Origin: the human T2T-CHM13v2.0 reference genome, Homo sapiens
Length of the DNA stretch: 64,000 nt
Direction: 5' to 3' (one strand)
Assembly: GCF_009914755.1 (NCBI RefSeq)
Contig: NC_060936.1
Part shown: one piece after another, positions 60,389 to 64,000 of the stretch
Layout of the letters: each line of letters begins with the position of its first letter
Position numbering within the stretch: the stretch's first letter is position 1
The notes under the pieces: generated by a model
Told to the model about the DNA's origin: nothing
The model's input: only the letters and a program-made list of their open reading frames with translations
The model's database searches: none
Position numbers and translations under genes: made by a program

Positions 60389-62115
60389 AATTTACTTATT
60401 TAAGGAAAAAGCTTAGGGAGCAACTAACAAAATGCTGCTGAGAACTCTGGATAGTATAGTAAGATGACTAAAGAGAGTGCTTGTGGTGGACATTAGAATG
60501 ATTGTTAGGAAAAAATCAGTCAGGAAAACAGAACTTTCTATAATCCCAAATTAGCCTACAGTTATTGGTTGGAAATGACCATTTAAAAGAAATACATTTT
60601 ATATACAATGTACATAGCATCAAAATAACTCCGTATGGGAATTATCCAAAACAATTATTGTATGCACCATTTTTTAAAAACTACTTTTACTTGTTCTAAA
60701 TTAGGTTAGAGCATTAAGAATTTTAATTTGATCAGCATCTACAGACTAACAAAGAGATAAATAAATATGAGAATTATAAGCTCAGTTTCTCAAGCTGAGT
60801 CATATTACATTAACATTACTTACGTATATCTAATTTTTATGAACCATGCATAAAGGTAGGAGTTTTATTTTTGCAAGTACAGTAATGGACACTTTACTAT
60901 TTTGATATATGTTTGTAAAAGATCTTAAGAAACATTTAGTTTTCCCTCCCTAGTAGAACTAAATAATAAGATATTCTGGGTTTTATTTTTATGTAATAGA
61001 ATAAAATAAATTTATATGTTTTCTTACAATAAATACATTAACCACAAGGAGAATTGGAAGCTGCCAGAATAAGGTATTAATATGTCCACAAATGTTTATG
61101 CTCTTCTTAAAGAAGACTGTTTGCTTTTGCCTTGAAAAATGTATTTTTCGCTGCTTTTTTCCAGCATTGTAACTTAATTTGCTGCACACTGTATTTTAAA
61201 AAGCCAATTCAGATAAGATGTTTAGTGTCATCATTTAGACATGCCACTTTCTCCTGCTACAAGGAATTTAAGTGACAGCAATATATGTTGAACATTTTCT
61301 GAAAACACACTTTTTCTTTTAATATATACACAAACTCAATTAGCGTCCAGGTCAGTCAGTGGAAAGGCATTTATAGAATCAATCATTTTGGGTTAAGAAG
61401 TAGACACCCTGCAAGCTTACTAATGGAATGGAAATAATGCCTGGAACCTCTCCAAACAGTAACAGTCTCAATGGAGCAATTAAATATGTATGAAGAATGT
61501 TTGCTGAGAAGTTCGAACACATCAACCTGGGGTTTATATTTGTGGTTTAATTTATTCAGCACCTTCCAGTGAGCCGATGCTTGATGGTCTAAAAACATTG
61601 CTGGGCCCTGCATCTGTTGCATCCTGCACAGAGTTTTGAGTGACAGTCACTCAGAAGCAGTGGTTATTTTTAATCATCTCAAGAAGTACAGGCAGAGAGG
61701 GGAGAATGGGAGTTTTTGATTTGCATTTAGATACCCAACACTGCCTCATTAATAAATTTGGCACTCTTAAGAGTATGTCAGGCAATCTTCAGCCCATTTA
61801 ATAGAAAGTATTGGCATAGGCAAAACTCCTATTTCTGCTCACAGCAGTGGTATTTAGGCCTTCAAATTACAGTTCACTTGTATGATTGCTGCAATCTGTA
61901 TCTTCAGATCATTACTTTTCTCTCTCAAAAGCGAAGTCTGTATGGTACTAACTAGCTGAACTTTATACTATTAGGAAATAATGGTGCTACTGTGTTATAA
62001 TACCACCGATTAAATTATGGAAAAATTTCAGGGGGAGATAGCAACAGGATGAGACGGCAACATTTTCTTTTATGCTCAAGCTTTGTTTTTAAATGCCAGA
62101 GAAACAAGGATATAT

Positions 62116-62320
62116 TTTTTCTTGTTTTATTTTTAAATTTATAATTGATACAACAATTGTACATATTTATGGTGTGCAATGTTATATTTCAGTGCATTTA
62201 TACATCATATTATGATCAATTGGAGTATTTACCATATCCATCACTTTAAACATTTATCCTTTCTTTGTGGTGACAACATTCAAAATCTTCTAAGTATCCT
62301 GAAATATACATTACACTGTT
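62116..62320 (-). mobile_element. L1MA-type 3' end with degenerate poly(A)
   Basis: T-rich tract followed by aattgatacaacaattgtacatatttatgg..catttatc..ttctttgtggtgacaacattcaaaatc, typical of an antisense L1MA 3' UTR. Confidence 0.75.
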
Positions 62321-63138
62321 TTTTGCTAAATGGCAAACAGATGTATGAAACCATGTTCAGCATCACTAATCACCAGAGCAGCGCAAACCTTGACCTCTTA
62401 ATCGGCCCTTTATCATCACCTATGCCCCAACCCCATGCCAGGGGGCAGTATTTCACAGGAAGGAACTTTCAGAGGAGCCAACTCTGCCTGGACCAGTCGT
62501 TGAAGAGGTTAGTCCTGGGGAGAGGGTGCTGTGATAGCCTGGGGTCTGACACTCACCAGAGGGTTGGGCTGGCAGCAGAATGCTCTCTCTCCCACCGCCT
62601 TGCCTGTGGAACCTCTTATGCCAGGCTTGTCTGGAGGAAATGAGTTCTAGCTTCCATGTGGGGCTTGAGGGCAAGGGAAAGGTAGGGTTTGAGATGAGAA
62701 TGAGGACTTGGGTTATGCTAACAGCTTCCAGTTTGGGTCTCAGGTTCTGACTCAGAAGCCAAGTATGAGGATATAGCCCCCAGTTGGGCGGGGAGACAGG
62801 ATCACAGGGTTTGGGATGGGTGGACTCCTCTCAATCGTGTGGTTCAGGGAACAAACCCTGAGCAACTAGACCCAGATGGGTGAATTTCTGGAGAATTTGA
62901 TGCTATTGCCATCACTATCAGCCCCAAGGCTTCCATTATACCCAGTCTTGGGGAGGGTGCACCATTTACATAGACCAAACATGAATGATGCTTCCTGGAG
63001 TTGGCTAATTGACCGATCTGTACCCTGAACTTTCCTTCCTATGGCAGACATTGCTCATCAAACACAGTTTATGTTCAGTTTAGATAAGGACTAGAGTCCT
63101 TCTCCACATGGGGCTGCAGACAAGCCCTGCCAATTCCT

Positions 63139-63705
63139 CAAGATCTCCAGCTCAAGAGTAAGCGGTTGGCCATCACTCTCTAATGAACCTTGATGAGCCC
63201 CCAGGAAACACAGAGGCACCTCCAGTAGCCCTGGATGATGCAGACAGCATTGAGGATGTGACATTAGCGCTGGCAGATGTGGCACATGTGGGCTAGGGAC
63301 TGCGGTGTGACTGCTGCCCACTCCTCCCGTGAGAAGTCCTCCAATGCTGCCTGCCCACTGCCTCATCTCCAGAATCCTGGACAGTATCAGCCACCATCAG
63401 CACTGAATGATCCAGGTGCTGAGGGCTGTGTTCCACAGTGCCTGATGCACCAGGGTGCCCCAACACCAGGCTTGGATCTTGATGACTGCCATATCTTTGT
63501 CAGAGAGCTTCTTTTGGTTTTCTGGGGGTTTTCCAAATTTCTCATTGGCATTAGCCACTGTTTGTGTCTTAACCAGAGCCAGAGTTTTGGCCTCTGCCTT
63601 CAACTTTGAGGTTAATGGTCCCGAAGAAAAATGGGCCAGCATGTCCTTCTGCTCAGGCTCATCTTTTGTGTGTGTGGGTTTATTCATTTTTTTAGGCTGC
63701 TTCCT
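63139..63705 (-). pseudogene. Processed pseudogene of an IQ motif containing F gene, most similar to IQCF1
   Basis: Minus-strand translation [74 protein letters not shown] / QAALEDFSREEWAAVTPQS..LNAVCIIQGYWRC..LELEIL parallels recalled IQCF1. No introns. Stops at 63397-99 and 63264-66, frameshifts near 63354 and 63155. Confidence 0.9.
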
Positions 63706-63708
63706 ATT

Positions 63709-63845
63709 AGTTCTGTTCTGCAAGTTGTACAGGAAGCATGGTGCTGACATCTGCACAGTTTCTGAAGAGGCCTCAAGGACCCTTTACTCATGGCAGAAGG
63801 TGAAGCGGAGCAGGCATCTCACATAGCAGAGCAGGAGCAAGAGAG
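63709..63845 (-). mobile_element. MST-type MaLR LTR fragment fused to the 5' end of the IQCF retrocopy
   Basis: Minus strand ctctcttgctcctgctc..gccttcacc/ttctgccatga..gaggcctc..cagatgtcagcaccatgcttcctgtacaacttgcagaac resembles the MSTA/MSTB middle segment; both LTR termini are absent. Confidence 0.8.
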
Positions 63846-64000
63846 GAAATAAAGATATTTAATGTAGGGAAAGGTTGGGAGGGTTTTGTGTGTGTGTGTG
63901 TGTTTCCAGGGGTTTGTATTCAAATGTATGTGGTATACAACTACTAATATCTTGTCGAAGTTACATGTTTATTATTCTAGGCTGAGGTCTGCAGGAGATA

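What the first reader, a model, noticed from the sequence alone, without database searches (positions are those of the whole stretch)
62101..63860. Fossil cDNA of an LTR-driven, spliced IQCF transcript: MST exon + IQCF1-like CDS + unknown segment + L1 3' end within one TSD pair
Seen: on the minus strand the order is MST LTR fragment (63845-63709), intronless disabled IQCF1-like CDS (63705-63139), about 750 nt of unassigned sequence, then an L1MA 3' end with degenerate A-tail. The block is bracketed by a 12/15 direct repeat (gaaacaaggatatat 62101-15, gaaataaagatattt 63846-60) with a TT|AAAT L1-endonuclease-like site. Known (from recalled consensus): MaLR LTRs start transcription just after their TATA-like box and carry a splice donor immediately after ..gcagaac. 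The LTR piece here starts at about that TSS and ends at about that donor, lacking U3 and the LTR 3' end. Inference: the insertion records a germline mRNA in which an MST LTR served as first exon of an IQCF gene, an isoform that may be unannotated or extinct.
Basis: partly seen in the sequence, partly recalled or inferred. Interest (0 to 1): 0.8.

Follow-up and report, generated by a model that had tools for sequence, protein, structure and literature searches.

The report
Old IQCF1 retrocopy with LTR-derived 5' end
This is an old, dead, reverse-transcribed copy of an unusual messenger RNA of the sperm gene IQCF1 that began in a retroviral-type LTR and ran on to a poly(A) signal in an L1 fragment; it is a neat but ordinary genomic fossil.

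Summary
Window 62116-63845 (minus strand) is one L1-mediated insertion. It is bracketed by a 12/15 target-site duplication (P about 1e-4) at a TT|AAAT site.

Its body is an intronless, disabled copy of IQCF1, whose parent is at chr3:51.93 Mb.

The "unassigned" 760 nt and the L1 3' end are not separate pieces. They are colinear with the DNA just downstream of IQCF1 on chr3, up to 25 nt past an ATTAAA in that L1 fragment. The template was therefore a read-through IQCF1 transcript polyadenylated in the L1.

The 131-nt LTR piece (63845-63715) lies inside the duplication. It starts 30-41 nt after the LTR's TTTAAA box. It ends 1 nt before the GT that follows in genomic copies.

The LTR-first-exon reading is the best fit but is not proven. 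No same-strand LTR of this type lies within 144 kb upstream of human IQCF1. About 10 nt at the junction are also unexplained.

Reverse-transcriptase template switching and trans-splicing remain open. This is a new member of known kinds, of moderate interest.

The parts
63846..63860 (-). 5' copy of the target-site duplication, preceded by TT (L1 endonuclease-type TT|AAAT site)
   Evidence: Sequence. 12/15 match to 62115-62101, P about 1e-4.
63715..63845 (-). 131-nt piece of an MST-type MaLR LTR (family name recalled, no repeat library available). It runs from about the LTR's transcription start to 1 nt before its GT splice donor.
   Evidence: 39 full-length genomic hits at 81-85% identity; 38 of 39 end at window 63717-63713. 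In 9 copies inspected, GCAGAAC or its variant (GCAGAA in 2 copies, GCTGAAC in 1) is followed by one base and then a GT, or a CpG-decayed form of it, in 7; in the other 2 copies the two positions are shifted by one base. A TTTAAA box lies 30-41 nt upstream of the piece's first base in 6 of 9 copies.
63704..63714 (-). Junction spacer of about 10-11 nt, origin unresolved. It contains a tandem CAGAA repeat with the LTR end. It resembles both the last 8-10 nt of canonical IQCF1 exon 1 and the LTR sequence just past its donor.
   Evidence: RefSeq's pseudogene annotation starts at 63711 (hub table).
63139..63703 (-). Intronless, disabled copy of IQCF1 exons 2-4 (coding part)
   Evidence: Blocks 63703-63616, 63593-63529 and 63533-63139 match chr3 51936010-51935926, 51929826-51929762 and 51928272-51927878. 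Paralogues reach only 71-73%.
63139..63141 (-). Site where 139 nt of the parent (chr3 51927877-51927739) are absent. The missing piece holds the human stop codon and the only proximal AATAAA. No GT-AG; short CT(C)TG microhomology.
   Evidence: IQCF5 also has sequence between the two blocks, so the segment is ancestral.
62379..63138 (-).
   Evidence: Colinear with chr3 51927738-51926938 at 84.1% identity. No other genomic match.
62116..62378 (-). Copy of the L1 3'-end fragment that sits downstream of IQCF1 on chr3. It supplies the poly(A) signal and an A-rich tail.
   Evidence: The alignment crosses the unique/L1 junction and internal L1 breakpoints without a break, at 86.2% identity, and homology stops at 62116 / chr3 51926670. 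ATTAAA at chr3 51926695.
62101..62115 (-). 3' copy of the target-site duplication

Best explanation
The block is an L1-mediated processed pseudogene, 40-87 million years old, lying antisense in a TMEM117 intron.

Shown: its RNA template was an unusual IQCF1 transcript. That transcript ignored or lacked the proximal poly(A) signal and ran about 1.1 kb further. It was cleaved about 25 nt after an ATTAAA in an L1 3'-end fragment downstream of IQCF1.

Inferred: the transcript carried, in place of most of canonical exon 1, a 131-nt first exon from an MST-type MaLR LTR. Transcription started at the LTR's own start site, and the exon was joined by splicing from the LTR's donor to the 5' end of the IQCF1 message. 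That LTR is no longer upstream of human IQCF1. Either it was lost from the locus or the join was made in trans.

L1 endonuclease nicked a TT|AAAT site. Reverse transcription primed on the A-rich end copied the whole RNA to its 5' end, leaving a 15-bp duplication. The copy has since decayed.
For: - Single insertion: the 12/15 duplication abuts the LTR start and the end of chr3 homology (P about 1e-4), at a TT|AAAT site.
- Parent: four colinear blocks at chr3 IQCF1, with introns 2 and 3 removed exactly. Paralogues reach only 71-73%, and the 5' exons match only IQCF1.
- Read-through: alignment is unbroken from the unique 3' sequence through the L1 pieces to window 62116 / chr3 51926670, after which the flanks diverge. 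The only poly(A) hexamers in the chr3 stretch are AATAAA at 51927833, inside the 139 nt absent from the copy, and ATTAAA at 51926695.
- LTR piece: 38 of 39 genomic hits end within 2 nt of window 63715. In 7 of 9 copies one base and then GT, or its CpG-decayed form, follows. The piece starts 30-41 nt after a TTTAAA box present in 6 of 9 copies.
- The GT itself is absent from the copy, as expected after splicing.
- MaLR LTRs are described as carrying a promoter, a start site and a splice donor near the 3' end, and as first exons of chimeric oocyte transcripts (passages read in PMC5538554, and PMC6102241).
Against: - No same-strand LTR of this type lies in chr3 51936016-52080000, the 144 kb upstream of exon 2. 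The best hit of the 131-nt piece there is 25 nt at E 0.058, and six full-length LTR copies give only two diverged plus-strand (antisense) copies.
- The one same-strand copy (51916660-51917086) lies downstream of IQCF1 and is the least similar of 10 copies.
- The canonical exon 1 and promoter region is not LTR-like: alignment scores fall within the shuffle range.
- The join is not clean. About 10 nt between the LTR end and exon 2 fit the end of canonical exon 1 (about 8 of 10) as well as the LTR sequence past the donor (6 of 9-10). No AG acceptor is visible before that point in present human exon 1.
- No RNA evidence and no other species could be examined.
Confidence: 0.55

Rival explanations
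1. Template switching during target-primed reverse transcription. L1 reverse transcriptase copied a read-through IQCF1 mRNA and left it about 8-10 nt before the 3' end of exon 1. It then continued on an unrelated, unspliced MST-initiated RNA, guided by the short similarity between the end of IQCF1 exon 1 and the LTR sequence around its donor. It ran to that RNA's 5' end.
For: - It explains the absence of a source LTR near IQCF1.
- It explains the apparent presence of the last 8-10 nt of canonical exon 1.
- It explains the start at the LTR's start site.
- The two sequences do resemble each other at the join.
- Template switching at chance similarity is described for retrocopy formation by LTR-element reverse transcriptases (passages in PMC5470649). 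Template switching by ORF2p during TPRT is proposed for L1 chimeras (passages in bioRxiv 10.1101/2025.02.02.635956).
Against: - The GT of the LTR donor, which an unspliced LTR RNA would carry, is missing from the copy. A 2-3-nt deletion exactly there would be needed.
- Landing within 1 nt of the donor would be a coincidence of a few percent.
- From recall rather than any call: classic chimeras join at the 3' end of the second RNA, not at an internal site.
Confidence: 0.22
2. Trans-splicing. The first exon of an LTR-initiated transcript from another locus was spliced from the LTR donor onto IQCF1 pre-mRNA, and the hybrid RNA was retroposed.
For: - The LTR piece ends at the donor.
- There is no LTR at the parent locus.
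- A preprint proposes trans-splicing for first-exon/L1 chimeric insertions whose gene loci lack the L1 (passages read in bioRxiv 10.1101/2025.02.02.635956).
Against: - Trans-splicing is rare in mammals.
- The same unexplained 10-nt spacer and the lack of a visible acceptor apply.
- Nothing here separates it from cis-splicing followed by loss of the LTR.
Confidence: 0.12
3. Chance juxtaposition. An older truncated LTR fragment already lay at the chr12 site, or arrived separately, and the IQCF1 retrocopy landed beside it. Alternatively, the L1 end is a separate L1 insertion.
For: LTR and L1 fragments are very common in the genome (thousands of first-look candidates).
Against: - The duplication lies outside the LTR piece, not between it and IQCF1.
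- No other LTR parts flank the block.
- The L1 end is colinear with the parent locus across its junctions.
- Orientation, abutment and the start and donor ends would all have to be coincidences.
Confidence: 0.03

Closest known systems
L1-mediated processed pseudogenes (retrocopies); RefSeq LOC100294713, IQCF1 pseudogene
   Same: Intron loss, A-rich 3' end, 15-bp duplication at a TT|AAAT site, decayed reading frame. RefSeq already annotates 63079-63711 as an IQCF1 pseudogene (hub table).
   Different: The insertion is about 1.73 kb, not 0.63 kb. It also holds an LTR-derived 5' piece and a 1-kb read-through 3' UTR ending in an L1 fragment. Neither is in the annotation.
LTR-initiated chimeric transcripts of MaLR elements in oocytes and embryos (PMC5538554, PMC6102241, PMC10616205; passages read)
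   Same: The LTR piece runs from the LTR's start site to its splice donor and is in sense with the gene, as in such first exons.
   Different: It is known here only as a DNA fossil. No LTR is present upstream of the gene in human, the join is not clean, and IQCF1 occurs together with the term LTR in only one held paper, whose text I did not read.
Retrocopies as 'genomic fossils' of transcript variants (Shemesh et al. 2006; seen only as a reference-list entry in PMC5470649, and the paper itself is not held)
   Same: A retrocopy records an alternative 5' exon and an alternative poly(A) site of its parent.
   Different: This is a single case, with a transposon-derived first exon that is absent from today's locus.
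Chimeric L1 insertions and template-switch chimeric retrocopies (bioRxiv 10.1101/2025.02.02.635956; PMC5470649; passages read)
   Same: Two unrelated RNA-derived parts, in the same orientation, within one duplication.
   Different: The L1 part here is not a second template, because it is contiguous with the gene at the parent locus. The possible second template is the LTR piece, which ends at an internal donor site rather than at an RNA 3' end.

Membership tests
L1-mediated processed pseudogene | Parental introns precisely absent | tested here: met
   The exon 2/3 and 3/4 junctions are exact against chr3 exons flanked by AG and GT. The exon 1/2 junction is ambiguous.
L1-mediated processed pseudogene | Target-site duplication of 7-20 bp at an L1 endonuclease-type site | tested here: met
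   12/15 match, frequency 0.0001 in 20000 random pairs. TT|AAAT site.
L1-mediated processed pseudogene | 3' end at a poly(A) site with an A tail | tested here: met
   Homology ends 25 nt after ATTAAA at chr3 51926695. The A-rich tail is short and merges with the L1 fragment's own A-rich end, so a separate poly(A) tail cannot be told apart.
LTR-initiated chimeric transcript (as source RNA) | 5' end at the LTR's transcription start | tested here: inconclusive
   The piece starts 30-41 nt after a TTTAAA box in 6 of 9 genomic copies. No mapped start site for this family was available.
LTR-initiated chimeric transcript (as source RNA) | LTR part ends at the LTR's splice donor and joins a gene exon at its acceptor | tested here: inconclusive
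   Donor side met within 1 nt. Acceptor side not met cleanly: there is a 10-nt spacer and no AG at the corresponding point of human exon 1.
LTR-initiated chimeric transcript (as source RNA) | Same-strand LTR upstream of the parent gene | tested here: not met
   None in the 144 kb upstream of IQCF1 exon 2 in this assembly. The only same-strand copy is downstream and dissimilar. Other species could not be tested.
LTR-initiated chimeric transcript (as source RNA) | RNA evidence for the junction | not testable with these tools
   No expression data are held.
Template-switch chimeric retrocopy | Second RNA copied from its 3' end, or from a point of similarity, to its 5' end; first RNA 5'-truncated at the join | tested here: inconclusive
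   Short similarity exists at the join. However, the LTR's GT is missing and the join is internal to the LTR.
mRNA/L1 chimeric insertion | The L1 part derives from a separate L1 RNA | tested here: not met
   The L1 end is contiguous with IQCF1's downstream DNA at the parent locus.

The most novel reading that the evidence does not exclude
The retrocopy preserves an extinct germline isoform of IQCF1 from 40-87 million years ago. That isoform was promoted by a then-young MaLR LTR upstream of the gene and was polyadenylated in a downstream L1. The LTR promoter has since been deleted from the human locus, so this pseudogene is the only surviving record in the human genome of a bout of LTR promoter gain and loss at a sperm gene. 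LTR-driven expression in oocyte or early embryo would also explain why a spermatid gene was retroposed heritably.
Probability: 0.35. Interest if true: 0.5.

Novelty: new member of a known kind. Interest (0 to 1): 0.38.

Why it matters
It shows how much more a processed pseudogene can record than its annotation says. RefSeq marks 0.63 kb, but the insertion is 1.73 kb and captures both an alternative 5' exon and an alternative poly(A) site of the parent.

If the LTR-first-exon reading is right, this is a dated example (40-87 million years) of LTR promoter use at a testis gene whose LTR is no longer at the human locus. That kind of turnover is normally invisible.

It is also a caution for pipelines that call "mRNA/L1 chimeric insertions". 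Here the L1 tail is just part of the parent's read-through 3' UTR.

It has no evident function today. The frame is broken and it lies antisense in a TMEM117 intron.

Tried and rejected
- Canonical IQCF1 exon 1 and promoter as a decayed LTR. Local alignments of the chr12 piece and of six LTR copies to chr3 51936500-51936150 scored within the shuffle range. Rejected.
- The same-strand LTR at chr3 51916660-51917086 as the source. It is on the wrong side of IQCF1, has the lowest identity (72.7%) and shares no rare variants. Rejected.
- The two plus-strand MaLR-like copies 1.4-4.3 kb upstream of exon 1 as the source. They are antisense and only about 69% alike over 61 nt. Rejected.
- IQCF5 or another paralogue as the parent, or as donor of the 5' exons. 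They reach only 67-73%, and there is no match to exons 2-3. Rejected.
- The 139-nt gap as an intron. No GT-AG, GC-AG or AT-AC fits, whereas a plain deletion fits the sequence exactly. Splicing rejected. Whether it was lost in RNA, during reverse transcription or later in DNA stays open.
- LTR-element-mediated retroposition (passages in PMC5470649). Not fitting, because there is no 3' LTR and the duplication and site are of L1 type.
- Pfam on two ORF translations: 0 families at E up to 1. Uninformative.
- Shemesh 2006 could not be read.
- No repeat library, no other vertebrate genome and no RNA data were available.
- No consensus of the LTR copies was built; comparisons were pairwise.
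Full report
**What is there.** Read on the minus strand, the block 63860-62101 contains, in order:
- a 15-nt repeat copy (63860-63846);
- a 131-nt LTR piece (63845-63715);
- about 10 nt of unclear origin (63714-63704);
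- an IQCF1-like sequence (63703-63139);
- about 760 nt of unique sequence (63139-62379);
- an L1 3' end with a short A-rich tail (62378-62116);
- the second repeat copy (62115-62101).

The window lies in an intron of TMEM117 (plus strand, hub table), so the insert is antisense to it.

**One insertion.** The two 15-mers match at 12 of 15 positions. Among 20000 random pairs of window 15-mers, 12 or more matches occurred at frequency 0.0001 in a fixed register, 0.0001 for AT-matched pairs, and 0.0009 when 3 nt of slack were allowed at both boundaries.

The boundaries were set independently: by the start of LTR homology and by the end of homology to chr3. The 5' copy is preceded by TT and begins AAAT, which is an L1 endonuclease-type site. 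About 80% identity is what two neutral copies of this age should retain. The LTR piece lies inside the duplication, so it arrived with the IQCF1 sequence.

**Parent gene.** A search of the window's own assembly found a single non-repeat relative, on chr3. The matching blocks are:

| Window | chr3 |
|---|---|
| 63703-63616 | 51936010-51935926 |
| 63593-63529 | 51929826-51929762 |
| 63533-63139 | 51928272-51927878 |
| 63140-62115 | 51927738-51926670 |

On chr3 these blocks are bounded by AG and GT. Joining them behind an upstream exon that ends in ATG|GT gives a 205-aa open frame, which is human IQCF1. Gap-free identities are 77.6%, 83.6%, 84.1%, 84.1% (unique 3' part) and 86.2% (L1 part).

The other IQCF genes of the cluster reach only 67-73% and match neither exon 2 nor exon 3. 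The copy is dead. It has an in-frame TGA at 63399-63397, a 4-nt insertion near 63359, a 1-nt deletion near 63163, several other indels, and ATA where the start codon would align.

**The "unassigned" segment and the L1 end.** These are not extra pieces. The chr12/chr3 alignment runs without a break from the coding part into unique downstream DNA. It then crosses the unique/L1 boundary and the L1 fragment's internal breakpoints, and stops at window 62116 / chr3 51926670, where the flanks diverge.

The L1 fragment was therefore already downstream of IQCF1 when the RNA was made. On chr3 the stretch holds only two poly(A) hexamers: AATAAA at 51927833 and ATTAAA at 51926695. The second lies 25 nt before the end of homology. 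The template was thus a read-through IQCF1 transcript polyadenylated at the L1's signal.

The first hexamer and the human stop codon lie in a 139-nt segment (chr3 51927877-51927739) that the copy lacks. IQCF5 also has sequence there, so the segment is ancestral. No GT-AG, GC-AG or AT-AC boundary fits, and a plain deletion between CT(C)TG microhomologies reproduces the copy exactly. Whether it was lost in the RNA, during reverse transcription or later is open. That it removes the only proximal signal is a coincidence worth noting.

**The LTR piece.** Against the genome, query positions 16-146 (window 63845-63715) hit dispersed copies at 81-85% identity. Of 39 full-length non-self hits, 38 end at query 144-148 and one runs on to 155.

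Nine copies were inspected with their flanks:
- In 7 of 9, GCAGAAC (GCTGAAC in one) is followed by one base and then GT or a CpG-decayed form of it. In the other 2, which read GCAGAA, the two positions are shifted by one base. The piece therefore ends 1 nt before the LTR's GT.
- A TTTAAA box lies 30-41 nt before the piece's first base in 6 of 9 copies. One copy has TTTAAG, one is degenerate, and one lacks upstream LTR sequence.

The GT itself is absent from the chr12 copy. Passages in Franke et al. 2017 (PMC5538554) state that ERVL/MaLR LTRs carry a promoter, a start site and often a splice donor near the 3' end. Brind'Amour et al. 2018 (PMC6102241) report hundreds of genes with LTR-initiated isoforms in oocytes and a canonical donor in some MaLR consensus sequences.

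**What does not fit.** I searched 175 kb of chr3 (51905001-52080000). The 131-nt piece found no same-strand match upstream of IQCF1 exon 2: over 144 kb the best hit was 25 nt at E 0.058.

Six full-length LTR copies used as queries found the following:
- Two diverged copies on the opposite strand (51937566-51938239 and 51939808-51940482).
- One full-length same-strand copy at 51916660-51917086.
- A 32-37-nt same-strand match to the LTR's donor region at 51912482-51912520. It looks like the 3' end of an older LTR family (recalled) and, like the full-length copy, lies downstream of IQCF1.

The full-length same-strand copy lies 9.6 kb downstream of IQCF1's distal poly(A) site, upstream of IQCF5. 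It is the least similar of 10 copies to the chr12 piece (72.7%), belongs to a different sequence variant, and shares no rare variants with it.

The canonical exon 1 and promoter region is not LTR-like.

The join is also untidy. The 10-11 nt at 63714-63704 form a tandem CAGAA repeat with the LTR end. They resemble the last 8-10 nt of canonical exon 1 (about 8 of 10). They resemble the LTR sequence just past its donor less well (6 of 9-10). Present human exon 1 shows no AG acceptor at that point.

**Mechanism.** Shown:
- L1-type retroposition of a spliced IQCF1 RNA;
- read-through to the L1 poly(A) signal;
- the LTR piece being part of the same cDNA.

Inferred:
- The LTR piece was a first exon joined by splicing from the LTR donor.

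This reading best explains the piece's two ends, its orientation and the missing GT. It needs either loss of the LTR from the locus in 40-87 million years or a join in trans. That age comes from a non-coding K2P of 0.174 and assumed rates of 1.0-2.2e-9 per site per year.

The main rival is template switching by the L1 reverse transcriptase near the 5' end of an ordinary IQCF1 mRNA onto an abundant LTR-initiated RNA, at the short similarity noted above. It explains the missing source LTR and the exon 1 remnant. However, it needs a small deletion exactly at the GT and an internal landing site.

Trans-splicing, as proposed for first-exon/L1 chimeras in bioRxiv 10.1101/2025.02.02.635956 (passages), is a third option. 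Independent insertions are nearly excluded by the position of the duplication.

**Comparison and novelty.** RefSeq already lists 63079-63711 as an IQCF1 pseudogene (hub table). The LTR piece, the 1-kb read-through UTR and the true 1.73-kb extent are not annotated.

Retrocopies that preserve transcript variants, LTR-initiated chimeric transcripts and chimeric retrocopies are all known kinds. A full-text search for IQCF1 together with LTR found one paper, which I saw only as a search listing and did not read. Supplementary tables were not searched. I rate this a new member of known kinds and of moderate interest. The interesting part, an extinct LTR-promoted isoform, depends on cross-species and RNA data that these tools do not hold.

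Noticed in passing
L014/L015 = chr3 51937566-51938239 and 51939808-51940482 (plus strand): Two diverged MaLR-like LTR copies lie about 2.24 kb apart, upstream of and antisense to IQCF1. Each is interrupted by an Alu at the same LTR position. This suggests either a local duplication of LTR plus Alu, or the two LTRs of one element homogenised.
   Followed up: partly
L040 = chr3 51916660-51917086 (minus strand): A full-length MST-type LTR lies between IQCF1 and IQCF5, in sense with and upstream of IQCF5. Its donor GT has decayed to AT. Whether it ever drove IQCF5 is unknown.
   Followed up: partly
L039 = chr3 about 51912700-51912440 (minus strand): The 3' part of another, older-looking LTR with a TGTGAG donor-like site, cut by an Alu, lies upstream of IQCF5. 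The family was not determined.
   Followed up: no
window 63139-63141 versus chr3 51927877-51927739: The 139 nt missing from the retrocopy contain the parent's stop codon and its only proximal AATAAA. This may be linked to the read-through, or may be coincidence.
   Followed up: partly
window 63711-63720: A tandem CAGAA-CAGAA sits exactly at the LTR/IQCF1 join. It may be a later slippage duplication that obscures the original junction.
   Followed up: no
L024 = chr2 173169870-173170003: A genomic LTR copy whose LTR homology begins within 2-3 nt of where the chr12 piece begins, with non-LTR sequence upstream, but which continues past the donor. It may be another copy truncated at the LTR start site.
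   Followed up: no
window 63887-63905: A short (CA)n microsatellite lies about 25 nt outside the 5' duplication copy.
   Followed up: no
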